The position numbers and the translations under genes are program-made. From the IMG/VR virus record IMGVR_UViG_3300045988_115450, positions 1 through 64,000 of that record: DNA of 64,000 nt; one strand, 5' to 3'. This DNA is from a virus. The notes below the pieces were generated by a model. The model had not been told where the DNA came from. It did not search any database and saw only the letters and a program-made list of their open reading frames with translations. Shown here in pieces: positions 41,163 to 53,024 of this stretch (position 1 is the stretch's first letter; every line of letters begins with the position of its first letter).

Positions 41163-41402
41163 TTACTCATTACCCTTCTTGTCTTTCTGCTCGCCGCCAT
41201 TTTCCTTCACACAAATCGGAAGCCGCCGAACATGGTAGTCCTTTCTTTCTCTTACCACGTTATACTTCTCACAGGTGTGTGTCGGGTATGGATGAGTCCC
41301 AGGGAGTCCGTACATGGCAGCGAGAGAGCTAGAGATACCAGCTCTGTACTTAGAGAATCTACACTCATTACACAATACTGTTTTAGTTTTCATATATGAC
41401 AC
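41163..41402 (-). CDS. Cys-rich small protein immediately downstream of the RT
   Basis: CNEC...HTCEK...C. There is a 9-nt gap after the RT stop. Confidence 0.45.
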   Translation of the reverse strand: MSYMKTKTVLCNECRFSKYRAGISSSLAAMYGLPGTHPYPTHTCEKYNVVRERKDYHVRRLPICVKENGGEQKDKKGNE

Positions 41403-41410: not shown

Positions 41411-42577
41411 TTAGTTTTTGAGATCCTTCTTCATCGTGGCTTCAATATCAAAGCCAAACTTCTGACTATAGCGAGTGATAACTCCATCAATACTTCCTCT
41501 GTTAACCATTCGATAGTAGCTCATAAGACCGAGCACATATTGCAGTTGCTCAAGAGGCCAATAAGTTCCGCTCTTTCTGTCCTTCGCGTAATTGAAAAGC
41601 ATCGCCTCGAAGTTGCGCTTCTTCTTATACCCAATCGTGATCTGGTTGTCCTTGTTGATCATCACACCGAGTACCCAATTCTTATGATACGAGGGGCCGT
41701 AATGAGTTTTCTCATCTTTGATGAGATAACTGGCCCCGAAAAGTCTAAACAGATTTTCAATCTTTCTGATAATGAAGCTCTTATCAAACTCAATACCACA
41801 GCTGATGTTCATATCATCAGCATATCTGGTATACGCGAACCTTCTACCCTTTTCATCAGGGTTGTTTTCCGGGTTCTGCAGGCTACGCAGAAACTTACTG
41901 AACTCAAAATCAAACGGAATCATAATCAGATTGGTCAGCATCGGGCTGATCGGCGTTCCCATAGGTAGACCTCCATCCAGGAAGCAAAGCGACAGAGCTT
42001 TTCTAAGCTCTTCTCTCCCGCTTTTGCACTCCATAATGAGACAGAACGGGTAAATCATAGACAGCGCGTTCCATACAAACTCCGGAGTGGTATTAGGAAA
42101 GAAACCGCTGATGTCAGTCTTTAAATACCACTTGCTCTTATTCCACTGATGGACTTTTGCGGCGTCTACACTACTTCTGTTTTTGACATAAGCGTATGCA
42201 GCGGCATGGCTGCTCGCATAAAACTCAGATTCTAACAGCAGTTTTAGCTCTCGCAGACAATTCATCAGTTCGTCGTCCGGCGCGTTAATCTCTCTCATGC
42301 CGCCGCTCTTTTTCGGGATAAAAAACTTATGGTAATGTGTATGAAGATCGCTTTCAAGCAGTTCCTGATGCTTTTTGTTAAATGCTCTCAGTAGTTCAAT
42401 CTTTTTCCCCGTGTCAAACCCTGCCAGGATTCTCTCGGGCAGTCTCTCATATGCAACTGTTCTAGTATATAGAGATCTCGATTCCCTCACATGTTTATCT
42501 TGAAGCAGCGCAGACATAATATCCTCTAAAGAAATCTGCTTATACGGCTCTGTAATTCTTGCTGTTACATAAATCAT
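41411..42577 (-). CDS. Reverse transcriptase, retron-type
   Basis: KKSGGMREINAP (motifs 1-2), YAYVKNRS, LKTDISGFFPN, GLPMGTPISPMLTN, YTRYADDMNIS (YADD), then NWVLGVMINKDNQITIG (retron VTG-like region) and LGLMSYYRMVN. Confidence 0.85.
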   Translation of the reverse strand: MIYVTARITEPYKQISLEDIMSALLQDKHVRESRSLYTRTVAYERLPERILAGFDTGKKIELLRAFNKKHQELLESDLHTHYHKFFIPKKSGGMREINAPDDELMNCLRELKLLLESEFYASSHAAAYAYVKNRSSVDAAKVHQWNKSKWYLKTDISGFFPNTTPEFVWNALSMIYPFCLIMECKSGREELRKALSLCFLDGGLPMGTPISPMLTNLIMIPFDFEFSKFLRSLQNPENNPDEKGRRFAYTRYADDMNISCGIEFDKSFIIRKIENLFRLFGASYLIKDEKTHYGPSYHKNWVLGVMINKDNQITIGYKKKRNFEAMLFNYAKDRKSGTYWPLEQLQYVLGLMSYYRMVNRGSIDGVITRYSQKFGFDIEATMKKDLKN

Positions 42578-42594
42578 ATTATTCTCCTTGCTTT

Positions 42595-42935
42595 TATCTG
42601 AAACTATATATGGATTTGGATGTCAGTACGAGATGCTCATCGCGGAGCTTGTCGTCGTCTGAGACGGTGAAATCCCTGACTTGGCGTTTATTGTTTGCCG
42701 GATACCCCTGCTGGTGGCGGATGTTGACCCTGTCGAACGAATATCCTTCTGGTTTTTCCTGTTGTTCGGGCGCTGCTTCTCATCAGAGAAGATGCCACCG
42801 GGGTGTTAAGCCTTCTTGGAGGGCACCAAGCATTGGTCTGCTATCGCACGCAGCGGGGTTCCTCTTTCGGACGATGTGCCACTCTTCCGTTCCGGTAAGA
42901 GTTTCTATTTTTTTAAATAGAAAGTGCTTTCAGAT
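42595..42935 (-). ncRNA. Structured RNA copy A (about 341 nt) directly 5' of the RT; retron msr/msd-like candidate
   Basis: 9-bp closing helix (42595-42603 / 42927-42935). On the minus strand this is followed by G, hairpin 42901-42923 and hairpin 42881-42900. Homologous to 48537-48883. The only ORF here is a junk-like antisense one. Confidence 0.65.
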
Positions 42936-43037
42936 ATTTAGATTGAATTGGTTGTTAGCAGGCGTGCCATTCCCCTGCATCTCTTTAGCCATTAAGGCGC
43001 GTGGCGACACGAAATTTCCACCTCAAACAACCAATAT

Positions 43038-43706
43038 TTAATATGCTTCCATAGTAAAATCAAAGGCGTCGATCAAAACTATCTTCTTGATCGAACGCCC
43101 ATTCACAAAATTCATGAAGTTTGCTACTGCACAAGAGCAAATCATCCGCACAGAAGGAGCGATACTAAGCTCCAGGTTACATGCAGATCGAGGAGTTTCA
43201 GCCAGAGCTTCCTCTTGAGTAAACTGCATGGAGTTAATCAGATTTTCAACCATCGCACTAGAACTCCAGTCAGCCGCAAAGTGTTGCGCGTCCGTCAGCC
43301 GAAGTCTGGTATCAAACACAGCTTTGATATACGGGTTTCTAGCATTTTCTTCGCAAATTTTTCTGCGGAGATCAATGTTGTCCACCATAAGGAAGACATA
43401 GCCGGACAGACGCTGGTTGGTATACCCCTCCTGAACTACTTCAATACCATTTGCATCAGGATTGATACTCAACATCATATCTTTCACGGCTTCAGCTTTA
43501 TTTCTACCGATGTCGCTATCATTGAACATCTGATTCGCGATATTGTGCGACTCAACCTTGTCAAAATCGTACAGAGTGACCTTCTCAAGCCCAGCTCTTG
43601 CCAACAATTCGGCTACAGTGGAACCGGACGCACCACAACCGATGATATGTACTCTTTCTTTAACCTTCGTGGGATTAAAGAACTCAATACTCTTCGATAA
43701 ATTCAT
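43038..43706 (-). CDS. Minimal ThiF/MoeB/E1-like adenylyltransferase
   Basis: HIIGCGASGSTVAELLARAGLEKVTLYDFDKVESHNIANQMF..DIGRNKAEA (Rossmann GxGxxG plus the E1 DxD..N..RQ-like region). Confidence 0.8.
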   Translation of the reverse strand: MNLSKSIEFFNPTKVKERVHIIGCGASGSTVAELLARAGLEKVTLYDFDKVESHNIANQMFNDSDIGRNKAEAVKDMMLSINPDANGIEVVQEGYTNQRLSGYVFLMVDNIDLRRKICEENARNPYIKAVFDTRLRLTDAQHFAADWSSSAMVENLINSMQFTQEEALAETPRSACNLELSIAPSVRMICSCAVANFMNFVNGRSIKKIVLIDAFDFTMEAY

Positions 43707-43718
43707 CTTTATACCTCC

Positions 43719-43997
43719 TTATAGCATTAAACAATTCAAAAATACATCACTATCGACTTTACTTTCAATCGGCTCAAACATCCAAGAAGCCCAAGCAACA
43801 AATCTTAATTTGCCTCTTTCTTCAATGCAAATACGTTCAACTTGAATGCCGTTAATCAAGGATGTCAATGAGCGCACTGTTATGATCTTACCGCAATAGC
43901 GCGTTTTATCCCCTTCAAATATCCCGTGATCATTTTTAGAAAGAATCGCCGTTCCACTACCTGTATCTACGGAAAACAGATCAGGGTCAGACATCAT
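43719..43997 (-). CDS. Tail-family paralog P1 (divergent), C-terminus ...FLNCLML
   Basis: Shares the C-terminal tail with P2-P5. A 16-aa N-terminal remnant ORF (MKLEDMYVGQKVRVRS) lies just upstream at 44004-44054. Confidence 0.5.
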   Translation of the reverse strand: MMSDPDLFSVDTGSGTAILSKNDHGIFEGDKTRYCGKIITVRSLTSLINGIQVERICIEERGKLRFVAWASWMFEPIESKVDSDVFLNCLML

Positions 43998-44061
43998 GTC
44001 TTCCTAACTCCTCACCCTGACCTTCTGCCCAACATACATATCTTCAAGTTTCATACGTCAC

Positions 44062-44394
44062 CTACAACAACAAACAGTTCATAAAAACCTGCTCATCAAT
44101 AGATTGCTTTAACCGCAACACACTTTTATAGAAAGACATCTCTTTTTTGCTAACCCTTACCCTGTACCAACCGCCAAGTTCATACTCAACGATCTCGCCG
44201 CCGTCTCTTATAAACTCTCTGAGGCAAGGATCGCCCTCCGCGTACATCACATCGTCGGCGTATATAAATCTTTCGTTTGTGATGATGTCTACGCTCTGCG
44301 ACACAGCCCCATTCGGAAATACCGCCCGTAAGTTATCATTAAATTCATCCCACGTTTTTGGAATAAACTCAACCCGCTGCCCAGGTCTAAACAT
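44062..44394 (-). CDS. Tail-family paralog P2, C-terminus ...FMNCLLL
   Basis: MFRPGQRVEF..WDEF...GGWYRV...FYKSVL...DEQVFMNCLLL. Confidence 0.6.
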   Translation of the reverse strand: MFRPGQRVEFIPKTWDEFNDNLRAVFPNGAVSQSVDIITNERFIYADDVMYAEGDPCLREFIRDGGEIVEYELGGWYRVRVSKKEMSFYKSVLRLKQSIDEQVFMNCLLL

Positions 44395-44403
44395 TATATC
44401 ACC

Positions 44404-44745
44404 TCACAATAATAAGCAATTTATGAACAATTTTTCATCAATTGACCTCATGTCTTCTTTCAGACACAACACGCTTTCGTGAAATTTCAGTTTTACTCCA
44501 TTTATATTCACCATATACCAACCAGTAGCATAGTACTTGATAATCTCACCTCCATTTATTAGAAGCTCGTTAAACCAAGAATCGCCTTCCCCATAAAGCA
44601 CCCCTGCAACCAATATCATTTCTCTATGAGTAGTTGAGAATTCATCTAATATCATATCTCTCGCAAACAACTCCATTAAAGCATCCCGAAATTCATCCCA
44701 TGACTTTGGGGCAAGCGTAACTTTCTGTCCAAGTTCAAACATCAT
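44404..44745 (-). CDS. Tail-family paralog P3, C-terminus ...FINCLLL
   Basis: MMFELGQKVTL..WDEF...TGWYMV...FHESVL...DEKLFINCLLL. Confidence 0.6.
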   Translation of the reverse strand: MMFELGQKVTLAPKSWDEFRDALMELFARDMILDEFSTTHREMILVAGVLYGEGDSWFNELLINGGEIIKYYATGWYMVNINGVKLKFHESVLCLKEDMRSIDEKLFINCLLL

Positions 44746-44752
44746 ATTACCT

Positions 44753-45082
44753 CTATAGCAGCAAACAATTCATAAGTACCTCTTCGTCAACATATGCTTC
44801 TTCCATCGACCGTAGCATCGTCTCATAGAACCACGCTCTTTCTCCGCCAAAGTCTACAATGTACCAACCACACTCGAAGTCTAATTCAATCACGCCACTC
44901 ATCCTGCGTAACTTATAAAAATCGGGAGCGCTATATCCTGCTGCACTAGCTGCAAGATACCCAGTGGTATCACAGCTCGTAAACCTTTTTGCGCTGCGAG
45001 GAAGATGCTTTAGGTAAGCGCTGCAAAACTCATCCCAGCTCCTCAATGCTATCCTGACTCGTTGTCCGATCTCGAACATCAT
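44753..45082 (-). CDS. Tail-family paralog P4, C-terminus ...LMNCLLL
   Basis: Start reassigned to MMFEIGQRVRI, preceded by RBS GAGGAG. CGWYIV...FYETML...DEEVLMNCLLL. Confidence 0.6.
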   Translation of the reverse strand: MMFEIGQRVRIALRSWDEFCSAYLKHLPRSAKRFTSCDTTGYLAASAAGYSAPDFYKLRRMSGVIELDFECGWYIVDFGGERAWFYETMLRSMEEAYVDEEVLMNCLLL

Positions 45083-45092
45083 ATCAACTCCT

Positions 45093-45437
45093 CTATAACA
45101 GCAGGCAATCCATAAGTGTCTTTTCGTCAACACTTTTTTCTTTTAATTGACACGGCGCTGTTTCGCCCGGCCCACCCACCAAACACTCATCTCTTACTTC
45201 GCCAAAGTCAACGCGCCAAATCCAATAGTCATCCGGTTCCAGATAAATTGTCGCTCCGTATTTATCTGGAGCATTAAAATTGTCACCTTCAATCATTTCG
45301 CATCCATCATCGACGCATTCTTGAAACACTGAATGAAACCTACGTTTCACGTGTTCCACCGCACTCTCCAAATTCCAATAAACACCGGATAAATCAATAC
45401 CCTGGTCTGTTTCTGTTATCACACAATATACCTTCAT
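45093..45437 (-). CDS. Tail-family paralog P5 (divergent body), C-terminus ...LMDCLLL
   Basis: Start reassigned to MKVYCVI, preceded by RBS AAAGGAGAAG. The tail is VDEKTLMDCLLL. Confidence 0.55.
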   Translation of the reverse strand: MKVYCVITETDQGIDLSGVYWNLESAVEHVKRRFHSVFQECVDDGCEMIEGDNFNAPDKYGATIYLEPDDYWIWRVDFGEVRDECLVGGPGETAPCQLKEKSVDEKTLMDCLLL

Positions 45438-45611
45438 ACCGGTCTTCTCCTTTCTTATGTACCTCTGAACAGCTAACCAGCTGTTTAAGTTCAAAAGTTT
45501 TCTGCTCTGGGAGTAGGAAAACTTTTGAAGCGACACAGCCATTTGTTACTCCCTCGTTCCGACAAGAGTGATATGTAATTTAACATATCTGTACAGGCAC
45601 ATATGTTTTTT

Positions 45612-46298
45612 TTACTTAATTAACATCTTACCGTCACGCCAATCGGGCCGCTCATCAATAATTTTATCTGCGTCCTCCATGAATTCTTCAAGCTCAACCG
45701 CGGCGTTCATAATCCACTCGATGCCATCCTGTACATCACGCACGTCCACCTTCTCAAACCGGTCAATGTTATCGAAAAACCATCTGCACAAATCATATAC
45801 AGCGGGGTTCCATCGTTCCACTGCGAGTTCCACATTGTCGCTTTCGTATAGGATGCCTTCTCTAACATCATAAACCTGTGAAGATATGTAGCCTTTCTTA
45901 TTGAAAATCTGAAAGACGTAGAAATCATCAACGTCTGTCAGCAAATCTGCTCTATACTTTATATCCGTAGAAGATGGACTGACACCCATGTTCACATGAG
46001 AATGCCCGTACAACCGAACCTTATTGAATATCTCCGTGTTAAGAGAATCCTGCCAGTTCACATAGTCCGCATCTTCAGGTTCGGTGCTTGCCGACGTGAC
46101 CTTCTGAGGGAATACCAAGACGTCCTCCACGATAAACTCAGCTGGATTTTCCAACCTTCTTACAACTCCGTGCCATCCAACCTCCAGATTCCTATTCATA
46201 ACAAGCAAACACGTCTTCATCCATGCCTTCTTACTGTATACGATTTTGCACGGATTTGTCGCGGCCAACAAATCCGTTGCATTAGTTGCCTTATTCAT
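45612..46298 (-). CDS. JAB/MPN (JAMM) metallopeptidase
   Basis: Exact JAMM signature HxHx7SxxD (GHSHVNMGVSPSSTD), with an upstream Glu (LEVGWHG). Confidence 0.8.
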   Translation of the reverse strand: MNKATNATDLLAATNPCKIVYSKKAWMKTCLLVMNRNLEVGWHGVVRRLENPAEFIVEDVLVFPQKVTSASTEPEDADYVNWQDSLNTEIFNKVRLYGHSHVNMGVSPSSTDIKYRADLLTDVDDFYVFQIFNKKGYISSQVYDVREGILYESDNVELAVERWNPAVYDLCRWFFDNIDRFEKVDVRDVQDGIEWIMNAAVELEEFMEDADKIIDERPDWRDGKMLIK

Positions 46299-47706
46299 TG
46301 CTCTTATTCTCCTTTATCCATTTAATTGCGTCGATGTAATTAACTACTCGCCCATCCGGCAACTCCAATACTACAGCGCCTTTTCTCAACAACTCTTCAA
46401 GGAATGATCTCAATACGACAGTATCACTAAGATTCAGATTCCCGCTTTCGGCGCACGTCGTGTCTACCGTATAAACGTAGTCACATTTGTCGCAAGATTT
46501 CTCTAGCGCCTGTTGCCAGCTCCCCATGCAACCATATTTATCAAGGTGTGTGTTGGGGAGATAGCTGTTGTATTCACAGCCATACCCATATGCCTTGATG
46601 GGTAGTACCATTCCTCCGAAAGAAAGTCTCCATGCGGAACACATTCTTACTTTGATATTAGAGTCAATGAAAATCCCTGTCATTAACTTTTTAGTATCAC
46701 TTTCTGTCAGGCCCACATACGAAGACCGCGTATAAAAAATCGACGACCGATTGTTGATGTACTCTCTCGCAATCTCTGGATCAAACAGTGTCATATAACC
46801 AGTTACAACATATACGATATTCCCATCTTTGTCACCGCTCTCAACGGACACATTTTTGTTCGACAAAAAATAATCCATTAACTCGTTCTTGCTTTCAACA
46901 TTACTGTTGTCAATTGCTTCCACCAACAAAGACCAACCTTCGTATTCTCTATACCAATCTCTCAAATCGGACATCAATTTATTGATCTGACTTCTTGCAC
47001 TCTCCATCTTCTTTGCGTATCTTTCCCTCTGTACGTTCCTTAGCTTTCCCTCATAGCCATAAAGGTAATATCTCTTTTTAGCTGAGGCCACGTCCACAGC
47101 AGCGGCAACCATATCGTTCATCGCTTTACAGATTACACTCATGCCGGAGTCTTCTTTAGACAGAATCTTAATAAACTTTGACTCCGCTTCAGTCCTGTCT
47201 TTAATGTACCATGGGCAGAATACATTGAAAAGACACACTAGGTAATGCCACGAGCCATAGTTATCCACGTTGGTAAGGACAACCGTACTCTTCCTCTCTT
47301 CATTACTGAAAATTCTCAGTATGATACCGAGTCGTTCTTTCATTAGATTCAGCTCTCTTGCCGTCTTCTCTTTCCAACTGCTCGCACATTTCATATTACT
47401 GACTAAAGTTTCTACGGCCTTAACCTTATCACACACGCAAAATGTAATCGTGTTGTCTTGAGAAGTTACCTCCGAAAAACGCTCTTTGTCTTTTATCCAC
47501 GTAATCCAATCAGCACAATTAGGATCTACCACTCTAACCATGATACGCACGTCCGCCGGAACTCTTGGCTTCAAAAACAACCGAGCCATTGCCAACGCAA
47601 AGTCATCGCCTTTGAACGTCCCGTCACCAGCAATATTAGAAAACTCAGACTCCAGCTCTGGGGCCAGCACTAAAACTTCACTGCGTTTCAAACAATTTGA
47701 AAACAT
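46291..47706 (-). CDS. Large (471-aa) protein of unknown function in the E1/JAB cassette
   Basis: Start reassigned to MFSNCLKRSEV, preceded by RBS AAAGGAGAAG. Cys-rich C-terminal region. Confidence 0.55.
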   Translation of the reverse strand: MFSNCLKRSEVLVLAPELESEFSNIAGDGTFKGDDFALAMARLFLKPRVPADVRIMVRVVDPNCADWITWIKDKERFSEVTSQDNTITFCVCDKVKAVETLVSNMKCASSWKEKTARELNLMKERLGIILRIFSNEERKSTVVLTNVDNYGSWHYLVCLFNVFCPWYIKDRTEAESKFIKILSKEDSGMSVICKAMNDMVAAAVDVASAKKRYYLYGYEGKLRNVQRERYAKKMESARSQINKLMSDLRDWYREYEGWSLLVEAIDNSNVESKNELMDYFLSNKNVSVESGDKDGNIVYVVTGYMTLFDPEIAREYINNRSSIFYTRSSYVGLTESDTKKLMTGIFIDSNIKVRMCSAWRLSFGGMVLPIKAYGYGCEYNSYLPNTHLDKYGCMGSWQQALEKSCDKCDYVYTVDTTCAESGNLNLSDTVVLRSFLEELLRKGAVVLELPDGRVVNYIDAIKWIKENKSNE

Positions 47707-47786
47707 ATATCTTCTCCTTTCTTTATGAACTCTTGGCAGGCCATCCGACGTAACCGAATGCCCTCCCAGCAACTCACTGTGTTATG

Positions 47787-47815
47787 TACGAGGCCGGACA
47801 ATGTCCGGCCTCGTA
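47787..47815. other. 29-nt perfect palindrome (14-bp GC-rich arms) without a U-tract
   Basis: TACGAGGCCGGACA-A-TGTCCGGCCTCGTA, between the Ubl-like gene and the 471-aa gene. Confidence 0.55.
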
Positions 47816-47832
47816 GATTGTGCTAACTCAAA

Positions 47833-48072
47833 TCAGATCGCGTTACCTTGCGCCTTAACAATAGCACTCAGAGTACAAATACCAGCGGCACCAAGTTCGG
47901 CAAAAGTGCAATCCATATCATCAGGCGTCAGAATCGTGCCGGAAAGAGAATTGACGCTACGGCTGCACTCAATTCCGATCTTCTCGAACAGAGAACGAGG
48001 GGTCTCTACATGTTCATCTACGGCCTGGCTATCAAAACGGCGGGTGGTACTTCTAACATTCACAATAATCAT
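47833..48072 (-). CDS. Small beta-grasp/ubiquitin-like (ThiS/MoaD-like) candidate, C-terminus ...VKAQG-NAI
   Basis: 79 aa. MIIVNVR..., a mid helix, then GTILTPDDMDCTFAELGAAGICTLSAIVKAQGNAI. This is a ThiS/MoaD-like layout with a Gly 3 residues from the end. Confidence 0.45.
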   Translation of the reverse strand: MIIVNVRSTTRRFDSQAVDEHVETPRSLFEKIGIECSRSVNSLSGTILTPDDMDCTFAELGAAGICTLSAIVKAQGNAI

Positions 48073-48113
48073 AATATACTTCCTTTCTGTTATTACATCT
48101 ATGCTTATTTGTT

Positions 48114-48503
48114 TTAGCCAGCTACTACGATCTTGGAACTGACCCGTGCCATCATAACGTCGATCTCTTCCAGCGCTTCGCGCACCTGGGCTTCAATCTT
48201 TTCTACCTTCTCGATAACAGAAGCATATCTCTCGGCAACAACCTCACGTACGGAACGGTCAGCTTCGGTAATAAGACTCACAGTTACGACCGCACGACCA
48301 GAGCCATCACAAGACTCAGCCTCATAGATAATACCGGTCGGTGCTACTACGCCTCTCTCGCCAGCGAGAGTGTAAAACAGTGCGTTGCCATCTTCGTCCA
48401 GCAGTTGCACAGACTTAGGCCGGTACAGAGCTGCGCGATTGATTTCTTCAAGAGTGAAAGCACTCTTGAGTGTTACTGCGTTACCACACACAATAATTTC
48501 CAT
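48114..48503 (-). CDS. 129-aa protein ending ...KIVVAG; first gene downstream of RNA copy B
   Basis: ORF preceded by RBS AAAGGAGAAG. C-terminal Gly. Confidence 0.5.
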   Translation of the reverse strand: MEIIVCGNAVTLKSAFTLEEINRAALYRPKSVQLLDEDGNALFYTLAGERGVVAPTGIIYEAESCDGSGRAVVTVSLITEADRSVREVVAERYASVIEKVEKIEAQVREALEEIDVMMARVSSKIVVAG

Positions 48504-48536
48504 ATTCTTCTCCTTTTCATATGTCTAATTATGTAT

Positions 48537-48883
48537 TATAAAGTGATTCTATATATGGAATGATAGACCTAACCCGTGCGTTAGTACGCTGACGGGCTTG
48601 GTTATCTGAGGTACTGTGTGATCGACGTCGCTCCAACTCCGCATCGCTTTGGCGTTTGATGCCTTACGCTGTAACGGTGGTAGGCAAGTTGTGCGGCTTT
48701 CTTTATATGCTTCGCTTAGTAATCTTAGCCTTCTTGTCGCATCCATGACGCCGAGAGGTTTCTGGTCGAGAGCCATCGAGGTTGGTGCAACCTTTGCGAT
48801 GCTTCCCACACCTTCGGACGATATGTTACTCTCCCATTCTGGCAAGAGCCTCTGTGAATTTCAGAGTTTGCAATCACTTTATA
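48537..48883 (-). ncRNA. Structured RNA copy B (about 347 nt), a diverged paralog of copy A
   Basis: 12-bp closing helix (48537-48548 / 48872-48883) at the equivalent position but with a different sequence. It is followed by G and then two hairpins. Shared blocks are CCATATATAG, CGTCCGAA, CTCTTRCCRGAAYGGRAGAG and AAACGCCAA. Confidence 0.65.
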
Positions 48884-48944
48884 AATACATTTCTAATACG
48901 GTTAAAAAAATCAGATAAAAGAATTATTTGGACTAAATGCTCAC

Positions 48945-49799
48945 TTAGTTTTCCTGCTGTCCACTCCAAACAACCAGACAATCAGGATTGGGGACACCTC
49001 TGGTTTCCTTACCATCTAGCCATCTAGCCAGTACATAAGAGGTCGTCAAGAACACACGGTGGCGGTAATGCTTGCACCGGCCATCAATAGCAGAATCCTT
49101 AATCCAATCTCTCAAGCGGACAATCTGCCTATCCAAACTAGACTCAGCATAACCAGTCTGAAGAACATTCCAGAAATATTCGAGCCTAACATCGCTCGCC
49201 CCGGCTTCTTTCGCCAGATACATGGCAGCTGTGATCGGAGCCGTGCCAAGCTTTCTCTGTCTCACCTTCAAGAAACTATTAACCCAGGAGAATTCAGCGA
49301 TGTGCTTCGAAATCATGTCCGCTCTCTTAGCTTCATTCTCCAAGTGCCTCGCACTAAATTCATTCAGCACCATGCAGATTGCAACCGAGCGCTTGTAAGA
49401 AGAAATCTTTCCTCTGTTTCCGCCCTCGGCCATACACAAAGCGTCGGCTTCACTTCTCGCCCTACCCCGGTCAATGTACGGACTGCGTTCCATATTGAAC
49501 AGGAAGAACATCTTTACTGTCTTACCGCAGCGCTTCACCGCTTCGAGCCGGTGATGCCCGTCAATAAGAACACCAGCCTTATCAAACATAATAAAGCCGG
49601 TCGGAGTATTTTCATCCCATGTGCCATTCATCATATGGGACTTGTACTTATTCACAGTGCTCTTACTGATCGGACGATTGCCGCCGGACATAGCCAACAA
49701 ACCCGTCGCCATTTCCGGAGACACGTAAGCATACGCCAACTGTCCACCGTTCCGTTCTTCTAGCAACAAGTTGCTCAACAATTCTTCATAAGCTGTCAT
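48945..49799 (-). CDS. ParB/sulfiredoxin-like nuclease-domain protein
   Basis: Start reassigned to MTAYEEL, preceded by RBS GGAGG; the listed N-terminal extension would overlap a tRNA. Motif LIDGHHRL. Confidence 0.6.
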   Translation of the reverse strand: MTAYEELLSNLLLEERNGGQLAYAYVSPEMATGLLAMSGGNRPISKSTVNKYKSHMMNGTWDENTPTGFIMFDKAGVLIDGHHRLEAVKRCGKTVKMFFLFNMERSPYIDRGRARSEADALCMAEGGNRGKISSYKRSVAICMVLNEFSARHLENEAKRADMISKHIAEFSWVNSFLKVRQRKLGTAPITAAMYLAKEAGASDVRLEYFWNVLQTGYAESSLDRQIVRLRDWIKDSAIDGRCKHYRHRVFLTTSYVLARWLDGKETRGVPNPDCLVVWSGQQEN

Positions 49800-49825
49800 T
49801 TGTATGTACCTCCTAAAAATTTTGC

Positions 49826-49902
49826 TGGTGGTTCCTGCCCGGCTCGAACGGGCGACCATCCAGTTATGAGCTGGACGCGCTAACCAACTGCGCTAAGGAA
49901 CC
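49826..49902 (-). tRNA. tRNA-Met/Ile2 (anticodon CAT), CCA encoded
   Basis: Hand-folded cloverleaf: GGTTCCT/AGGAACC acceptor, TCCAG-CTCATAA-CTGGA, GCCCG-TTCGAGC-CGGGC. Confidence 0.85.
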
Positions 49903-49978
49903 AGGTACGTTTAAAGCCGCTGAATTTATCAGCGGCTTTAAACTGTTAATGAAAGCAAGTGTCCGTATAAAACGAACG

Positions 49979-50053
49979 TGGCAGCGCCGGACTGAGATCG
50001 AACAGTCTTCCACGGAGTCAAAGTCCGTTGCATTACCGTTATGCTACGGCGCT
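49979..50053 (-). tRNA. tRNA-Gln (TTG), CCA encoded
   Basis: AGCGCCG/CGGCGCT acceptor and ACGGA-CTTTGAC-TCCGT anticodon arm. Confidence 0.8.
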
Positions 50054-50164
50054 ATATAAATCAAGCAGAGCAGAGCAGAGTTTAAAGCCATTCCAGGCTA
50101 TGTAAAGAAAGGAGGTGGTTTATCAACAATAACAGGTAGGAGAATCATTTTCTGTTGCTTGATA

Positions 50165-50239
50165 TGGGGTAGGCGACGAGTGCCGATCTCGCGTTTCCGG
50201 TTTGGAAGACCGGTGTTCTAGCCGTTGAACTACGCCTAC
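50165..50239 (-). tRNA. tRNA-Gly (TCC), CCA encoded, atypical T-loop
   Basis: GTAGGCG/CGCCTAC acceptor and CCGGT-CTTCCAA-ACCGG. The T-loop reads ATCGGCA instead of TTCRANY. Confidence 0.7.
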
Positions 50240-50269
50240 ATTTTTGCGGTTCCGCAAACCGCATTTTTT

Positions 50270-50899
50270 TTAATTCATATATAAATCATAATAACTTTGT
50301 TTTCTTCTTGGTTTCAAATCTGGATTTTTTAAACGCCTTTTGATGAACTCAACTGTATTATCCAGCCCATAGTTCCTGACGTATGTATTGATCCTGTTTG
50401 CTCCCAAACCTAAAGTTTTAGCCCAGTCCTTCCCAGTATGTATCGTTCCGTCAACATCAATAAGCGAAGTTGTAGACTTGTATTTCGAATTATCTGCCAA
50501 TGTTACCCATCTGCAATTATCAGGAGAATAATCCCCGTCCCAATCAATTCTATCAATAGTCAAACCATCATCGTACCCGTTAGTTAATGACCAACTCTCA
50601 AATAATTCTGGATTGCGCATCCAATCATCACAAACCTTAACACCCTTAGCGCCATACCATCTGTAGCTCTTATTACTCTTATCATAGCACCTAGCTTTCA
50701 TATCGCTAAAAATTCTCCGGAGCTTGTCGTCACTCCATGAAGCATCATAATTTATATAACCCCCGCTTCTTCCGATATGTCTACAAGCTTTCGCCTGCTC
50801 AATATGCCTTTTCTGTTTGTTCGTTTCAAACCCACACTCAGCACATCTCACATGGTATAATCTATGCCCGTCCCTATGCCTGAAATCACACTCATACAA
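50270..50899 (-). CDS. Free-standing HNH homing endonuclease inside the tRNA cluster
   Basis: DRIDWDGDYSPDNCRWVT..DN and a C-terminal HTH-like tail. Same family as the two intron HNH genes. Confidence 0.8.
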   Translation of the reverse strand: MYECDFRHRDGHRLYHVRCAECGFETNKQKRHIEQAKACRHIGRSGGYINYDASWSDDKLRRIFSDMKARCYDKSNKSYRWYGAKGVKVCDDWMRNPELFESWSLTNGYDDGLTIDRIDWDGDYSPDNCRWVTLADNSKYKSTTSLIDVDGTIHTGKDWAKTLGLGANRINTYVRNYGLDNTVEFIKRRLKNPDLKPRRKQSYYDLYMN

Positions 50900-51047
50900 G
50901 ACATCGAAAATACCTATCCTAGTACCAACAATATTCTCTTTTTCCAGAATATCACCATCTTTCTGCGTGTTGCTAAATAATAATCCGATGAGAGTGCTGC
51001 CCTCTCGCCTGCGTTGTTCACTGTACTACTGTTATACTAATCGGATG

Positions 51048-51128
51048 TACGGGCGACAAGATTTGAACTTGCAAGCCTTACGGCACCGGGGCCTAAACCC
51101 GGCGTGTATACCGTTCCACCACGCCCGC
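51048..51128 (-). tRNA. tRNA-Leu (TAG), long variable arm
   Basis: GCGGGCG/CGCCCGT acceptor and CCGGG-TTTAGGC-CCCGG. Confidence 0.75.
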
Positions 51129-51210
51129 ATGGCACCACTAAGTCATGGTCGGCTGCGCATTTATCCTTTTTTGAATCGTGGTAGATGATTTTGCTTCGTA
51201 CAACCACGCA

Positions 51211-51285
51211 TGGACTGAGTGGAGAATTTTGAAATCTCGACCTCTGGTTCCCAAAACCAGCGTTCTGCCTCTGAACTACACCCAG
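51211..51285 (-). tRNA. tRNA-Pro (TGG), CCA encoded
   Basis: CTGGGTG/CACTCAG acceptor and CTGGT-TTTGGGA-ACCAG. Confidence 0.75.
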
Positions 51286-51288
51286 ATA

Positions 51289-51363
51289 TGGAGGCCGATG
51301 CGAGTTCGAACTCAGCGTCTGTGGGTTACAAAGCCACTGTTTTACCACTTAAACTAATCGGCC
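51289..51363 (-). tRNA. tRNA-Thr (TGT), CCA encoded
   Basis: GGCCGAT/ATCGGCC acceptor. Anticodon loop TTTGTAA, with a C:C at the loop-closing pair. Confidence 0.7.
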
Positions 51364-51513
51364 ACGCACCCCGTTTTGCGGGGTGGCTATGTAAGGGAAT
51401 CAAAAAGGGGAACTCCTGTCTCTTCCAGGATGCCAACACACTACTACGGACTGCCAGAGGCAAACCGCCACTTTTCAGGTGTCATAGTCCGCAAACTATG
51501 GGCTTTTCTTTAG

Positions 51514-51595
51514 TGCGGGATAAGAGACTTGAACTCTTACGTCTATCGACATCGAGACTTAAACACGAGGTGTCTACCGATTCCACCAATCCCGC
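51514..51595 (-). tRNA. tRNA-Leu (TAA), long variable arm
   Basis: GCGGGAT/ATCCCGC acceptor and anticodon loop TTTAAGT. Confidence 0.75.
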
Positions 51596-51948
51596 ATATT
51601 GAACTTGCTACAACCCAGCCTGGTGGTTGACCCGTGGGCGTTGATAACTGACCCAAACCATTAACCCAGGATTTTGTAAAACTTTAACCGTTAACCTTTG
51701 ATTCTTGAACTTTAATCTTCTGAAGATCTTTGAGCCTTGAATTTTGAAATTTTAACTTTGAAGTTTGAGCTTTACAGCAACATTTCTTCTATAAGAAATT
51801 AGATTAACAGTCCAATCTTTTTGTAAGCGCAAAATTTCAAGTTTTGCTTTGTAGTTGGCACATATTTGTTCATTTTTACATCGAACCAAGTGCCGTCAGC
51901 ACGATGGGTTACCGTTTTAGGTTTTCGGGTTGCAGCAAGTTGCTTATT

Positions 51949-52602: not shown

Positions 52603-52653
52603 ATTAGTTCCTCACTTTCTTATTTATGGAATTAGATTTTTATCGTGGTATCG

Positions 52654-52744
52654 TGGTCTCCCTGGGTGAATTCGAATCACCATATACCTTATGAGGGCCT
52701 TCCAATTATAAGTTGGAAGCTATAACCAATTTAGCTACAGGGAG
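52654..52744 (-). tRNA. Type II-like tRNA (19-nt variable region) with anticodon TAT, CCA encoded
   Basis: CTCCCTG/CAGGGAG acceptor, GCTA/TAGC D stem, TCCAA-CTTATAA-TTGGA, variable AGGCCCTCATAAGGTATAT, GGTGA-TTCGAAT-TCACC, discriminator A. Confidence 0.7.
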
Positions 52745-52933
52745 ATATTTGTTCAGCAACCACAACCGCCCTATCAATCAGTCGGCCTAACCAAAAGATA
52801 GGGCTGGATTGTGTTGCCCAACCGTGCCTGAGAGCTTTCTTGCCTAGCCTGTACTTAACCAGGTGTCTGCAATCAATGTTTAGGTTGCTGGTTTTGACCC
52901 TCGCTCTAGAACCAGTTAACTAGAGCGATTGAG

Positions 52934-53019
52934 AGCTACTAGACGGAATTGCACCGCCTTGAAGTCATAAGTGAGGCGCGAGAGGAGTTACGCCCACCTC
53001 TTCACCTGCTTGGAGTAGC
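52934..53019 (-). other. tRNA-like element / degenerate tRNA (no canonical anticodon arm)
   Basis: Acceptor-like GCTACT/AGTAGC and T-arm-like GGCGG-TGCAATT-CCGTC. The central stem AGAGG/CCTCT carries an 11-nt loop. Confidence 0.3.
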
Positions 53020-53024
53020 ATATG

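What the first reader, a model, noticed from the sequence alone, without database searches (positions are those of the whole stretch)
41411..48944. Candidate composite system: retron-type RT, two paralogous structured RNAs and an E1/JAB/Ubl-like cassette with five tail-tagged paralogs
All elements lie on the minus strand, in this order:
- RNA copy B
- a 129-aa protein ending in AG
- a 79-aa beta-grasp-like protein ending in QG-NAI
- a perfect 29-nt palindrome
- a 471-aa unknown protein
- a JAMM peptidase
- five paralogs ending in N/D-C-L-L/M-L
- a minimal ThiF/E1-like enzyme
- RNA copy A
- the RT
- a Cys-rich 79-aa protein

I know of no described retron, DRT, Bil/Bub or CBASS architecture that combines a retron-type RT and duplicated template-like RNAs with ubiquitin-like conjugation parts, and none inside a phage early region. 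It could be one system (anti-defence or superinfection exclusion) or two adjacent ones. Functional linkage is inference from adjacency only.
Basis: partly seen in the sequence, partly recalled or inferred. Interest (0 to 1): 0.9.

Follow-up and report, generated by a model that had tools for sequence, protein, structure and literature searches.

The report
Phage retron coupled to ubiquitin-like tagging
A large group of gut phages carries one conserved gene block that joins a retron (a reverse transcriptase with its template RNAs) to a ubiquitin-like protein-tagging kit, and I found no report of that pairing in the papers I could search.

Summary
The parts form one conserved module, not two neighbours.

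- **Linkage.** In about 145 related phage contigs with enough flanking DNA, the order ~490-aa protein, JAB peptidase, ThiF-type E1, spacer, RT is kept. This held for about 68 loci found through the RT and for 77 of 77 found through the E1.
- **RNAs.** The two "structured RNAs" are retron msr-msd RNAs. Each has a terminal a1/a2 stem that covaries, a G directly after a1, an opposing G before a2, and two covarying msr hairpins. A second copy also occurs in at least two other lineages.
- **Ubiquitin-like parts.** The 79-aa protein models as a ubiquitin/NEDD8-like beta-grasp. Its family ends in ..NA plus 0-3 variable residues. In some lineages it is fused, exactly after NA, to the 129-aa protein. 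The JAB has a complete JAMM motif and the E1 has an invariant Cys. The ~490-aa protein keeps only a His-x5-Cys, Asn, Asp set and matches no known fold.
- **Tail-tagged proteins.** These small SH3-like proteins accompany the module in nearly all lineages inspected.
- **Open points.** No E2 was found, the Ubl lacks a C-terminal Gly, and nothing is shown biochemically.

My reading is a new, phage-borne retron type whose partner is a Ubl conjugation cascade.

The parts
48536..48884 (-). Retron ncRNA copy B (msr-msd), orphan copy upstream of the 129-aa gene. a1 is 48884-48872, the putative branching G is 48871, the opposing G is 48549 and a2 is 48548-48536. The stem extends to 48890/48531 with one bulge.
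   Evidence: Sequence read. The MFE fold pairs the ends, z = -3.1. The a1-G / AG-a2 rule is met. Covariance model R1 (msr hairpin 2 plus motif) hits 48808-48850 at 44 bits, but this copy was in the model's seed. Equivalents exist in close relatives L002, L004 and L084.
48114..48503 (-). 129-aa protein (p129): a beta-rich N-terminal part plus a C-terminal helix, of unknown fold. It partners the Ubl and is fused C-terminal to the Ubl in some lineages.
   Evidence: ORF. Homologues upstream of the Ubl gene in many loci. Fusion proteins of 203-221 aa in L067, L069 and L070, with the junction directly after ..NA. No Pfam or PDB relative.
47833..48072 (-). 79-aa ubiquitin-like beta-grasp protein (Ubl). 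The family C-terminus is K-x-[DES]-[NS]-A plus 0-3 variable residues; here it is ..KAQGNA-I.
   Evidence: AlphaFold2 model with pLDDT 86.8, bb-a-bb-b topology and a disordered tail. Foldseek top hits are NEDD8, ubiquitin, ISG15 and SUMO, TM 0.6-0.7, probability 1.0. Family alignment.
47787..47815 (-). Perfect 29-nt palindrome forming a 13-bp GC-rich RNA hairpin between the Ubl gene and the next gene. Probably an attenuator or mRNA-stabilising element.
   Evidence: A strong hairpin, in some lineages with a U-run, sits at the same place in L001, L005, L011, L015, L060 and L062. The function is inferred.
46291..47706 (-). 471-aa protein (p493 if read from the TTG at 47772). It is phage-specific, with two alpha/beta domains joined by a long helix. 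The only invariant residues are His387, Cys393, Asn425 and Asp451. It is a candidate thioester or conjugating enzyme, or a target.
   Evidence: Present in every related locus. Invariant residues across 9 lineages at about 20% identity. AF2 model with pLDDT 84. No PDB fold or sequence match. Its only BFVD match is an uncharacterised siphovirus protein.
45612..46298 (-). JAB/JAMM metallopeptidase (228 aa).
   Evidence: E39...H99-S-H101-x7-S109-x2-D112 is invariant in the family alignment, which includes a crAss-like phage metalloprotease. 6 of 10 family members hit Pfam Prok-JAB, best E = 7e-4. The window protein itself has no Pfam hit.
45093..45542 (-). Tail-tagged paralogue P1 (ends ..VDEKTLMDCLLL).
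44753..45082 (-). Tail-tagged paralogue P2 (ends ..VDEEVLMNCLLL). The ATG start is taken from the alignment.
44404..44745 (-). Tail-tagged paralogue P3 (ends ..IDEKLFINCLLL).
44062..44394 (-). Tail-tagged paralogue P4 (ends ..IDEQVFMNCLLL).
43719..43997 (-). Tail-tagged paralogue P5 (ends ..VDSDVFLNCLML).
   Evidence: Family members with lineage-specific acidic-hydrophobic tails lie next to the module in nearly all lineages.
43038..43706 (-). Minimal ThiF-type E1 adenylating enzyme (222 aa, a single adenylation domain) with an invariant Cys176.
   Evidence: Pfam ThiF 5e-24. It matches only the E1 portion of the PADLOC Cap2 E1-E2 models. PDB sequence hits are MccB, UBA5, MoeB, Uba1 and Cap2. 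Invariant residues G23/G25/G28, D47, D49, N55, Q59, K70, D109, R134 and C176.
42595..42936 (-). Retron ncRNA copy A (msr-msd) directly upstream of the RT. a1 is 42936-42928, the putative branching G is 42927, the opposing G is 42604 and a2 is 42603-42595, ending 17 nt before the RT ATG.
   Evidence: Sequence read. MFE fold, z = -2.8. The same layout occurs in about 60 of 65 distinct E1-RT spacers. R1 hit at 42861-42903, 49 bits. Covariation of msr hairpin 2 and of a1/a2.
41411..42577 (-). Retron-type reverse transcriptase (388 aa) with an intact YADD catalytic motif.
   Evidence: Pfam RVT_1. PADLOC retron RT_II-A 5e-41 and RT_I-A 1e-38. NCBIfam retron St85 RT 1e-47, against group II intron RT 1.5e-18 and Drt2 3e-6. 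R251-Y-A-D-D255 is invariant in the alignment.

Best explanation
The block is one functional module of a large group of roughly 75-150 kb phages, probably of gut Clostridia. It is a retron whose obligate partner is a ubiquitin-like (Ubl) protein-conjugation cascade.

**Shown by sequence comparison**
- The RT is retron-type with an intact active site.
- One or two RNAs of 260-350 nt have the retron msr-msd layout.
- The 79-aa protein has a ubiquitin-type fold with a conserved ..NA end followed by a short variable extension.
- The JAB has a complete JAMM site.
- The E1 has its nucleotide-binding residues and an invariant Cys.
- All of these, plus the ~490-aa His/Cys protein, the 129-aa protein and the small tail-tagged SH3-like proteins, travel together.

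**Inferred mechanism**
1. The RT binds the two msr hairpins. It primes on the 2'-OH of the G after a1 and copies the msd into multicopy single-stranded DNA, one species per ncRNA.
2. The JAB trims the Ubl precursor, or the Ubl-p129 fusion, after NA.
3. The E1 adenylates the new C-terminus and takes it onto Cys176.
4. The Ubl is passed, probably through Cys393 of the ~490-aa protein, onto lysines of target proteins. The JAB also reverses the mark.
5. As in other retrons, the RT-msDNA complex acts as the nucleic-acid sensor or regulatory scaffold that holds or releases this effector arm.
6. The tail-tagged proteins use their shared acidic-hydrophobic C-terminal peptide to dock onto the cascade. 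They serve as interchangeable adaptors or as substrates.
7. Because the module is expressed from the phage's replication/RNA-repair gene region, the likely purpose is conflict. The phage would tag host defence proteins or proteins of competing phages.
For: **Linkage**
- Every RT-anchored locus with enough upstream DNA has the ~490-aa protein, JAB, E1, spacer and RT in the same order and on the same strand.
- 77 of 77 E1-anchored loci have the RT downstream.
- All 5 hits among 185,579 species genomes carry the whole module on phage-sized MAG contigs.

**Retron identity**
- Profile matches are to retron RTs and YADD is invariant.
- The a1-G ... AG-a2 layout is found in about 60 of 65 distinct spacers, with a2 ending 7-32 nt before the next start codon.
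- a1/a2 covary, 7 of 7 pairs with compensatory changes.
- msr hairpin 2 is 100% paired, 5 of 9 pairs compensatory, and 0 of 500 shuffles reach the observed score.
- These match the defining retron features in Mestre et al. 2020 (PMC7736814).
- Second ncRNA copies are seen in the window lineage, in L057/L058/L060 and in L107.

**Ubl cascade**
- Fold of the 79-aa protein.
- Conserved ..NA plus a 0-3 residue extension, as for Ubl precursors trimmed by the BilC peptidase (PMC10557695).
- Ubl-p129 fusions joined exactly after NA.
- JAMM motif.
- E1 residues and Cys176.
- His387/Cys393/Asn425/Asp451 are the only invariant residues of the ~490-aa protein.
- The gene order Ubl, large protein, JAB, E1 equals bilA-B-C-D.

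**Tail family**
- Located next to the module in nearly all lineages. It has a shared Trp and a C-terminal E-h-x-h-x-x-L-h motif.

**Context**
- The window also holds DNA polymerase, primase-helicase, ligases, RtcB, an RNA ligase and a tRNA cluster.
Against: - No msDNA, conjugate or phenotype has been observed. Every step after gene content is inference.
- No E2 was detected. The ~490-aa protein has no PDB fold match at E < 1e-3 and no PDB sequence match. Its profile comparison with a human E2 gave probability 0.7%.
- The Ubl ends in Ala, not the Gly of known conjugated Ubls.
- The E1 lacks the usual Arg of the N-x-x-R-Q motif and is far smaller than BilD.
- The RT motifs deviate from the retron consensus: A-h-x-x-H instead of NAxxH, and I-T-V/I-G instead of VTG. 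Its NCBIfam score is below the St85 family cut-off.
- The a1/a2 stems were found by searching for complementarity, so 100% pairing is partly by construction.
- In a few lineages (L005, L038, L066/67/71) the rule was not cleanly met.
- A role for the tail-tagged proteins is inferred from adjacency only.
- How the RT-msDNA and the Ubl arm are coupled is unknown, including which one controls the other.
Confidence: 0.6

Rival explanations
1. The coupling runs the other way. The Ubl cascade regulates the polymerase, much as Cap2/Cap3 prime and reset the CD-NTase in type II CBASS. The Ubl, or the E1 acting directly, modifies the RT or the RT-msDNA complex to switch msDNA synthesis on. The JAB resets it, and the msDNA itself is the active product, for example a decoy for host nucleases or sensors.
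For: - The E1 matches the E1 part of the Cap2 models.
- E1 and RT are immediate neighbours in all loci.
- The msr and the first templated bases are more conserved than the proteins, while the central msd varies freely. That fits a product whose bulk rather than sequence matters.
- Several RT C-termini end in small residues (..EDEAA..DDVAA..GVVA).
Against: - A separate Ubl with a conserved processed end exists, which CBASS lacks.
- RT C-termini are not conserved; the window RT ends ..DLKN.
- No evidence of any RT modification.
Confidence: 0.15
2. The module serves phage genome replication or RNA/DNA metabolism rather than conflict. Possible forms are msDNA as a primer or structural DNA, and Ubl tagging of replisome or repair proteins. 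The tail-tagged proteins would dock on a hub such as SSB or the sliding clamp.
For: - The module lies among replication, ligase, RtcB and tRNA genes. A primase-helicase or RtcB lies 5-8 kb downstream in several other lineages.
- More distant E1-JAB pairs sit in the replication module of crAss-like phages, next to primase and UDG.
- The module is ubiquitous in its phage group, like a core function.
- The acidic-hydrophobic C-terminal tails resemble SSB and clamp-docking peptides (own knowledge).
Against: - No retron is known to act in replication.
- The crAss-like 426-aa neighbour is not detectably related to the ~490-aa protein.
- The tail motifs lack the conserved Gln of clamp-binding motifs and differ between lineages.
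Confidence: 0.1
3. The Ubl/E1/JAB trio is a sulfur-carrier system of the ThiS-ThiF, QbsE-QbsC-QbsD or CysO-Mec type. It would make a Ubl thiocarboxylate to thiolate a nucleic acid such as tRNA, msDNA or phage DNA, rather than tag proteins.
For: - The best NCBIfam match of the E1 is ThiS adenylyltransferase ThiF, 3e-20.
- The E1 is minimal and no E2 is recognisable.
- JAMM peptidases trim sulfur-carrier Ubls (own knowledge).
- tRNA genes flank or interrupt the module in many lineages.
Against: - The Ubl lacks the C-terminal Gly-Gly of all known sulfur carriers.
- Its closest folds are ubiquitin, NEDD8, ISG15 and SUMO.
- No rhodanese, cysteine desulfurase or PP-loop thiolase was detected among the ten module proteins scanned.
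- All E1 matches are far below the curated cut-offs.
Confidence: 0.08
4. There are two unrelated systems, a retron and an E1/JAB cassette, that merely sit side by side.
For: - In the window alone, linkage is adjacency only.
- More distant E1-JAB pairs exist without an RT in crAss-like, Flavobacterium and Xanthomonas phages.
Against: The association is strict in both directions across lineages with only 37-60% protein identity, while the immediate flanks change.
Confidence: 0.02

Closest known systems
Retrons (RT + msr-msd ncRNA + effector; types I-XIII of Mestre et al. 2020, PMC7736814)
   Same: - A retron-clade RT with YADD.
- The ncRNA lies directly upstream of the RT, with terminal a1/a2 repeats, a G after a1 opposed by a G before a2, and two msr hairpins.
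- Accessory genes are conserved with the RT.
   Different: - The accessory part is a multi-gene Ubl/JAB/E1 cascade. It is not among the effector classes I recall from the 13 types, and the word 'ubiquitin' does not occur in the text of PMC7736814.
- It is carried by phages as a near-universal feature of a phage group rather than in bacterial defence islands.
- The ncRNA is long, at 260-350 nt.
- Several lineages have two ncRNAs for one RT.
- The RT region X and region Y motifs deviate from the consensus.
BilABCD (bacterial ISG15-like / type I and II Bil ubiquitination operons; PMC10557695)
   Same: - A ubiquitin-fold protein with a conserved end followed by a non-conserved extension.
- A JAB peptidase and an E1.
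- The same gene order: Ubl, large protein, JAB, E1.
   Different: - The Ubl ends in Ala, not Gly.
- The E1 is a 222-aa single domain, not the tandem inactive and active adenylation domains of BilD.
- No BilB-type E2 is detectable.
- No CapH/CapP regulators.
- It is encoded by phages and joined to a retron.
Type II CBASS Cap2/Cap3
   Same: An E1-type adenylation domain and a JAB peptidase accompany a nucleotide-polymerising enzyme.
   Different: - No CD-NTase and no E2 domain fused to the E1.
- A free-standing Ubl is present.
- The polymerase is an RT with a template RNA.
Sulfur-carrier Ubl systems (ThiS/ThiF, MoaD/MoeB, QbsE/QbsC/QbsD, CysO/Mec)
   Same: A small beta-grasp protein, a minimal ThiF-type E1 and a JAMM peptidase, without an E2.
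   Different: No Gly-Gly terminus, no sulfurtransferase partner, and the Ubl fold is closest to eukaryotic-type Ubls.
E1-JAB gene pairs in crAss-like, Flavobacterium and Xanthomonas jumbo phages (annotated 'thiamine biosynthesis protein ThiF')
   Same: - A homologous minimal E1 (25-33% identity) with the same invariant Cys.
- A JAB with the same JAMM motif, at least in the crAss-like phage.
- A location among replication genes.
   Different: No RT or ncRNA, and the neighbouring large protein is not detectably related. The function of these pairs is also unknown.

Membership tests
Retron | RT belongs to the retron clade of prokaryotic RTs | tested here: met
   The best profile matches are all retron RTs: PADLOC RT_II-A 5e-41 and RT_I-A 1e-38, NCBIfam retron St85 RT 1e-47. 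The group II intron RT scores 1.5e-18 and Drt2 3e-6. The score of 162.9 bits is below the St85 family cut-off of 235, so it is not a member of that particular family.
Retron | Region X NAXXH and region Y VTG motifs in the RT (PMC7736814) | tested here: inconclusive
   The most conserved residues, His and Gly, are invariant (H143, G316). The motifs read A-[AVL]-x-x-H and I-T-[IV]-G in the three-lineage alignment.
Retron | Contiguous ncRNA whose ends (a1/a2) pair, with two opposing G residues at the inner end of the stem | tested here: met
   a1-G ... AG-a2 in about 60 of 65 distinct spacers, with a2 ending 7-32 nt before the next start codon. 7 of 7 stem pairs show compensatory changes across 14 stems. 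Window coordinates were checked.
Retron | msr with one to three hairpins recognised by the RT | tested here: met
   Two hairpins follow the G. Hairpin 2 is 100% paired, with 5 of 9 pairs compensatory and 0 of 500 shuffles as high. Hairpin 1 was seen by eye in all lineages listed and was not quantified.
Retron | msd forming a long hairpin that is copied into msDNA, 2'-5' branched to the G | not testable with these tools
   The MFE folds show extensive but not single-hairpin structure. msDNA itself needs an experiment.
BilABCD ubiquitination operon | Ubl with a ubiquitin-type beta-grasp fold | tested here: met
   AF2 model with pLDDT 86.8. Foldseek hits NEDD8, ubiquitin and ISG15 at TM 0.6-0.7.
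BilABCD ubiquitination operon | Universally conserved C-terminal Gly followed by a non-conserved extension | tested here: not met
   The extension is present (0-3 residues), but the conserved terminal residues are [NS]-A.
BilABCD ubiquitination operon | E2 (BilB) with catalytic Cys | tested here: not met
   No E2 was detected by Pfam, PADLOC, PDB sequence or fold search, or by hhalign against a human E2. The ~490-aa protein has an invariant His-x5-Cys but no detectable E2 fold.
BilABCD ubiquitination operon | E1 (BilD) with tandem inactive and active adenylation domains and a mobile Cys domain | tested here: not met
   The E1 is 222 aa with one ThiF domain covering residues 17-218. One invariant Cys is present.
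BilABCD ubiquitination operon | JAB deubiquitinase | tested here: met
   The complete JAMM motif is invariant. Weak Prok-JAB profile hits in 6 of 10 family members.
Type II CBASS | CD-NTase plus Cap2 (E1-E2 fusion) plus Cap3 | tested here: not met
   No CD-NTase and no E2 part. PADLOC E1-E2 models match only residues 15-97 of the E1.
Diversity-generating retroelement | DGR-type RT with template and variable repeats differing at adenines | tested here: not met
   The RT matches retron models, not DGR models. RNA A and RNA B share only the msr and the 3' end and differ throughout, not at adenines.
DRT2-type (cDNA-encoded gene) | Stop-free reading frame on the cDNA strand, conserved among relatives | tested here: not met
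   RNA A is open over its whole antisense strand (114 codons). The close relative L004 has 40, and the other lineages are at the shuffled expectation.
PRTRC (ParB-related, ThiF-related cassette) | PRTRC ThiF family protein and companion proteins A-E | tested here: not met
   TIGR03736 scores 35 bits against a cut-off of 145. No other PRTRC model matched. The ParB-like gene is present only in close relatives.
Skipping-rope RNA (Rfam RF02924) | Match above the Rfam gathering score | tested here: met
   50.3 bits against 36.7 at 42951-43031. It is present only in the window lineage, so it is an inserted neighbour and not part of the module.

The most novel reading that the evidence does not exclude
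This is a previously unrecognised retron type and the first in which reverse-transcribed DNA is wired to a ubiquitin-like conjugation cascade. It would also be the first retron that is a standing feature of a virus lineage rather than a bacterial defence island. In this reading the RT-msDNA complexes, one or two per phage, sense or guide. The Ubl machinery then covalently tags host or rival-phage proteins, which are chosen through a family of interchangeable tail-tagged adaptors. The ~490-aa His/Cys protein would be a new kind of Ubl-conjugating enzyme with no detectable relationship to E2s. An even stranger form is not excluded: the Ubl could be joined to the RT or to the msDNA-RNA molecule itself.
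Probability: 0.3. Interest if true: 0.9.

Novelty: new variant of a known kind. Interest (0 to 1): 0.8.

Why it matters
- **Retron biology.** Retrons and bacterial ubiquitin-like conjugation have so far been studied as separate bacterial anti-phage systems. Here the two are welded together, and the owner is the virus. If the model holds, it adds a new effector class to retrons.
- **Viral use of protein tagging.** It would show that phages themselves use ubiquitin-like tagging, a strategy well known from eukaryotic viruses. It would also give a tractable entry point to the unexplained E1-JAB pairs of crAss-like and other abundant gut phages.
- **Possible tools.** The long, naturally duplicated ncRNAs, with a tolerant central msd and a compact RT, could interest retron-based DNA production. 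The Ubl/E1/JAB set with an unusual ..NA terminus could serve as an orthogonal protein-ligation system.
- **Annotation.** The E1 genes of relatives in public phage records are named "thiamine biosynthesis protein". For this module that name is probably wrong.

Tried and rejected
- **Near-identical DNA in GenBank phages:** none found.
- **CCATATATAG as a general phage promoter:** rejected. There are only two exact copies in 64 kb, one in each ncRNA, directly 5' of a2.
- **DRT2-like coding cDNA:** rejected. The antisense open frame is not conserved.
- **DGR-like template/variable repeat pair:** rejected.
- **E2 identity of the ~490-aa protein:** not supported.
  - Foldseek against the PDB gave no hit with E < 1e-3.
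  - The PDB profile search gave nothing.
  - BFVD returned only an uncharacterised homologue.
- **Homology of the ~490-aa protein to the 426-aa neighbour of the crAss-like E1-JAB pair:** not detected.
- **129-aa protein:** no Pfam or PDB relative.
- **Tail-tagged proteins:** only a weak SH3-like hint and unannotated PHROGs.
- **Skipping-rope RNA as a module part:** rejected, because it occurs only in the window lineage.
- **RNAalifold on a plain MAFFT alignment of the msr:** recovered only the tip of hairpin 2. I used a gap-free 43-column alignment instead.
- **Covariance model R1:** too narrow for the more distant lineages.
- **Generic scan for a1-G/AG-a2 pairs:** too noisy to count ncRNA copies. 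It gave 816 candidates, against 473 in shuffled sequence and 271 on the opposite strand.
- **Sigma-70 promoter and terminator scans of the block:** at chance level.
- **Literature:** searches for retron with ThiF, JAB or ubiquitin, and for phage-encoded Ubl or E1, found no description. The supplement of the skipping-rope paper was not available.

Full report
**1. What is in the window**

- **Order of parts:** a 440-nt non-coding gap, then ORFs of 129 aa and 79 aa, a palindrome, a 471/493-aa ORF, a 228-aa ORF and five small ORFs. These are followed by a 222-aa ORF, a 460-nt non-coding gap, a 388-aa ORF and a Cys-rich 79-aa ORF.
- **Profile matches:**
  - The 388-aa protein is a reverse transcriptase (RVT_1). 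Its best matches are retron RTs: PADLOC RT_II-A 5e-41 and NCBIfam retron St85 RT 1e-47. The group II intron RT scores 1.5e-18 and Drt2 3e-6.
  - The 222-aa protein is a ThiF-family E1 (5e-24).
  - The other proteins have no direct Pfam, PADLOC, PHROGs or NCBIfam match.
- **228-aa protein:** it carries an exact E...H-S-H-x7-S-x2-D JAMM signature.
- **Palindrome:** it is real, a perfect 29 nt at 47787-47815.
- **Paralogue tails:** the [ND]CL[LM]L ending occurs on exactly five ORFs in the 64 kb.
- **Surroundings:** DNA polymerase (split by a group I intron), primase-helicase, NAD ligase, RNA ligase, RtcB, NrdD, integrase-like genes and a tRNA cluster. This is the replication and nucleic-acid metabolism region of a phage of about 106 kb, judged from the contig lengths.

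**2. One module or two neighbours?**

No near-identical DNA exists in GenBank phages. A protein search did find an unannotated human-gut phage scaffold (MT835544.1) with the RT and the E1 side by side at 42% and 49% identity. Its ORFs repeat the whole set.

- **Anchored on the RT.** Scanning IMG/VR with an RT alignment gave 73 loci at 37-97% identity. tblastn of the window proteins showed the ~490-aa protein, JAB, E1, a 270-800-nt gap and the RT, in that order and on one strand. This held in every locus with enough upstream DNA.
- **Anchored on the E1.** An E1 alignment found 473 viral contigs with relatives. Among the best 80 (52-100% identity), all 77 with room downstream carry the RT.
- **Species genomes.** Among 185,579 species genomes only five contigs matched. 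All are Clostridia MAG contigs of phage size and all carry the whole module.
- **Flanks.** The immediate flanks (ParB-like gene, Cys-rich gene) are conserved only in close relatives.

More distant E1-JAB pairs without an RT exist in crAss-like, Flavobacterium and Xanthomonas jumbo phages.

**3. The RNAs are retron msr-msd RNAs**

- **Shared features.** RNA A and RNA B share a hairpin with compensatory changes, the motif AUCGUCCGAA and the 10-mer CCAUAUAUAG. That 10-mer occurs nowhere else in the window. Both gaps fold better than shuffled sequence, with z about -3, and their ends pair.
- **A common rule.** Among the 65 distinct E1-RT spacers of relatives, the best long-range inverted repeat usually obeys one rule:
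  - the 5' arm (a1) is followed directly by G;
  - the 3' arm (a2) is preceded by ..AG;
  - a2 ends 7-32 nt before the next start codon.
- **Covariation of a1/a2.** The arm sequences differ between lineages but stay complementary. Examples are UAUCUGAAA/UUUCAGAUA, AUCGUGAU/AUCACGAU, CUCACAAU/AUUGUGAG, CUUUGCAAU/AUUGCAAAG and AAAGUAAAACAGU/ACUGUUUUAUUUU. All 7 pairs nearest the G show compensatory changes across 14 stems. One caveat applies: the arms were found by looking for complementarity.
- **msr hairpins.** After the G come two hairpins and a conserved single-stranded motif. Hairpin 2 has 5-6 bp, a bulged A, 3 bp and a triloop. On a gap-free alignment of 12 sequences from the window lineage, the L001/L015-type lineages and the L057/L060 lineage, it is 100% paired. 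Five of its 9 pairs are compensatory, and the score is far above the shuffled and slid controls.
- **Match to the retron definition.** This is the layout given for retrons: terminal a1/a2, two opposing G residues and one to three msr hairpins (PMC7736814).
- **RT motifs.** YADD is invariant, as are the His of region X and the Gly of region Y. The surrounding motif residues deviate from the consensus.
- **Window coordinates.**

| Feature | ncRNA A | ncRNA B |
|---|---|---|
| Span | 42595-42936 | 48536-48884 |
| Putative branching G | 42927 | 48871 |

- **Second copies elsewhere.** A covariance model of hairpin 2 plus the motif finds both window copies. It also finds a second complete ncRNA downstream of the RT in L057, L058 and L060, and 3 kb downstream in L107. 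These second copies have their own a1-G/AG-a2 ends. Two template RNAs for one RT is therefore a recurring trait.
- **Pattern of conservation.** Within lineages the msr and the last ~20 nt before a2 are almost invariant, while the central msd varies.
- **Skipping-rope RNA.** The Rfam skipping-rope RNA at 42951-43031 lies 5' of a1. It is seen only in the window lineage, so I treat it as an inserted neighbour.

**4. The protein cassette**

- **Ubl (79 aa).**
  - Built on 27 family members, the model is a confident beta-grasp (pLDDT 86.8).
  - Its best PDB matches are NEDD8, ubiquitin, ISG15 and SUMO (TM 0.6-0.7).
  - The family ends in K-x-[DES]-[NS]-A. Some members stop there and others add 1-3 variable residues. 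This is the pattern of Ubl precursors that a peptidase trims, as shown for BilA and BilC (PMC10557695).
- **Fusion with the 129-aa protein.** In L067, L069 and L070 the Ubl is fused in front of the 129-aa domain, and the join falls exactly after ..NA. This links the two proteins functionally and again implies cleavage at that site.
- **JAB.** The family has an invariant JAMM site. Six of ten members reach Pfam Prok-JAB weakly.
- **E1.** It is a single 222-aa adenylation domain with invariant nucleotide-binding residues and an invariant Cys176. These are conserved even in the crAss-like and jumbo-phage relatives.
- **The ~490-aa protein.**
  - It is present in every locus at about 20% identity.
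  - Apart from the initiator Met, only His387, Cys393, Asn425 and Asp451 are invariant across nine lineages. That points to a Cys/His active site.
  - Its model is confident (pLDDT 84).
  - It matches nothing in the PDB by fold or by sequence.
  - It shows no relationship to a human E2 or to the crAss-like neighbour protein.
  - It has only an uncharacterised viral homologue.
  - Calling it an E2 is therefore a hypothesis. It rests on the gene order (Ubl, large protein, JAB, E1, as in bilA-B-C-D) and on the invariant Cys/His pair.
- **Hairpin after the Ubl gene.** A strong hairpin sits between the Ubl gene and the ~490-aa gene in most lineages. It may let the 129-aa protein and the Ubl be made in excess over the enzymes; this is inference.

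**5. The tail-tagged proteins**

In the window they sit between the JAB and the E1. In nearly all other lineages, 1-4 small proteins with the same build lie directly upstream of the 129-aa/Ubl genes. Their tails are lineage-specific: C.C.SLL, SNILSL, TSLL, ANLI, ALLL, QML and LFG.

Aligned together, they share three features:
- an SH3-like N-terminal segment (K-F-x-x-G-D-R-V, with one weak SH3 Pfam hit);
- an invariant Trp;
- a C-terminal acidic-hydrophobic peptide, E-h-x-h-x-x-L-h.

They are thus a conserved companion family. The shared tail suggests a common docking site, but its partner is unknown. Resemblance to SIM/LIR-type Ubl-binding peptides, or to SSB and clamp-docking tails, is recalled from general knowledge and is untested.

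**6. How it most likely works**

- **Shown:** the gene content, the strict linkage, the RNA architecture with covariation, the Ubl fold, and the catalytic motifs.
- **Inferred:**
  1. The RT makes msDNA from each ncRNA, primed at the G after a1.
  2. The JAB exposes the ..NA end of the Ubl.
  3. The E1 activates it and carries it on Cys176.
  4. The Cys/His protein passes it to targets, and the JAB reverses the mark.
  5. By analogy with all studied retrons, the RT-msDNA complex controls this effector arm, or the arm controls the complex.
  6. The tail-tagged proteins act as adaptors or substrates.
  7. The setting is a phage's early/replication region with RNA-repair genes. Together with the absence of the module from bacterial chromosomes, this points to a role in conflict with host defences or rival phages.
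- **Rivals:**
  - The cascade regulates the RT, as Cap2/Cap3 regulate the CD-NTase.
  - The module serves replication.
  - The trio is a sulfur-carrier system. A minimal ThiF-like E1, no E2 and neighbouring tRNAs speak for it. The lack of a Gly-Gly end, the lack of a sulfurtransferase and the ubiquitin-type fold speak against it.
  - The two halves are chance neighbours. This is contradicted by the co-occurrence data.

**7. Comparison with what is known, and novelty**

- **As a retron.** The module meets the sequence-level retron criteria, apart from partly deviant RT motifs and the untestable msDNA. Its accessory genes are not an effector class I know from the 13 described types.
- **As a Bil system.** It works like a Bil system on paper but fails Bil membership on three points: the terminal Gly, the E2 and the E1 architecture.
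- **Other families.** It is not CBASS, DGR, DRT2 or PRTRC (see the membership table).
- **Literature.** Full-text searches for retron with ThiF, JAB or ubiquitin, and for phage-encoded Ubl, E1 or JAB, found no description. The library misses much subscription literature, so prior description cannot be excluded.
- **Rating.** I rate it a new variant of known kinds: a new retron type with a Ubl-conjugation partner, carried by phages. It has high interest because the coupling is strict, widespread and mechanistically unexplained.

Noticed in passing
window 42951-43031 (-): An Rfam skipping-rope RNA (50.3 bits, gathering score 36.7) lies between the E1 stop codon and the start of ncRNA A. It is found only in the window lineage (also L002 9546-9626). 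Weinberg et al. 2017 describe the motif as linked to particular nearby protein genes and of unknown function.
   Followed up: partly
window 60028-60105 (-): Pistol self-cleaving ribozyme, 63.9 bits against a gathering score of 34.5.
   Followed up: no
window 17296-17622 (-) and 6392-6683 (-): Two group I introns. The first lies between two ORFs (15412-16545 and 17530-19527) that both match DNA polymerase, so the polymerase gene appears to be intron-split.
   Followed up: partly
window 49829-53100 (-): A cluster of at least nine tRNA genes lies directly upstream of the module. In other lineages tRNA genes flank the module or sit inside it (L008 4984-5055 and 6367-6439, between the Ubl gene and the ~490-aa gene).
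   Followed up: partly
window 26713-28746, 30113-31585, 36420-37667 (-): NAD-dependent DNA ligase, RNA ligase and RtcB tRNA-splicing ligase lie downstream of the module. This is an RNA-repair toolkit that suggests the phage counters tRNA-cleaving defences.
   Followed up: no
L081 10001-10912 and 12106-12318: In a Ruminococcus MAG contig the RT match is split by about 1.2 kb. This may be an intron or a homing-endonuclease insertion in the RT gene.
   Followed up: no
L001 about 31830-31860, L005 about 6055-6075, L011 and L015 (gap between the Ubl gene and the ~490-aa gene): A conserved motif CTTATAT(A/G)TGTCCA follows the intercistronic hairpin in several lineages that share only about 20-40% protein identity. 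It may be a phage promoter or a processing signal.
   Followed up: no
window 48504-48944 compared with L084 3780-4230: RNA B of the window and of L084 are almost identical in the msr and in the last ~70 nt but unrelated in the central ~280 nt. The proteins of the two phages are only 52-90% identical. The msd core appears to turn over or be exchanged much faster than its flanks.
   Followed up: partly
window 461-1660 (-) and 58739-59725 (-): Two tyrosine-integrase-like genes and a ParB-like gene (48945-49859) are present, yet relatives are almost absent from bacterial genomes (5 contigs in 185,579 species). The lifestyle (virulent, temperate or plasmid-like) is unclear.
   Followed up: no
window 41163-41402 (-): A Cys-rich 79-aa protein (CxxC ... 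C ... C) lies directly after the RT. It is conserved only in close relatives. L005 has an unrelated Cys-rich 84-aa ORF in a similar position (11318-11572).
   Followed up: partly
L075 (crAss-like phage cr111_1) 3430-7331; L076 (Xanthomonas phage PhiXhv-12) 3268-6642: Distant relatives of the E1, with the same invariant Cys, sit in replication gene clusters without any RT and are annotated 'thiamine biosynthesis protein'. In the crAss-like phage the E1 follows a JAMM peptidase. Their function is unknown and the annotation is probably misleading.
   Followed up: partly
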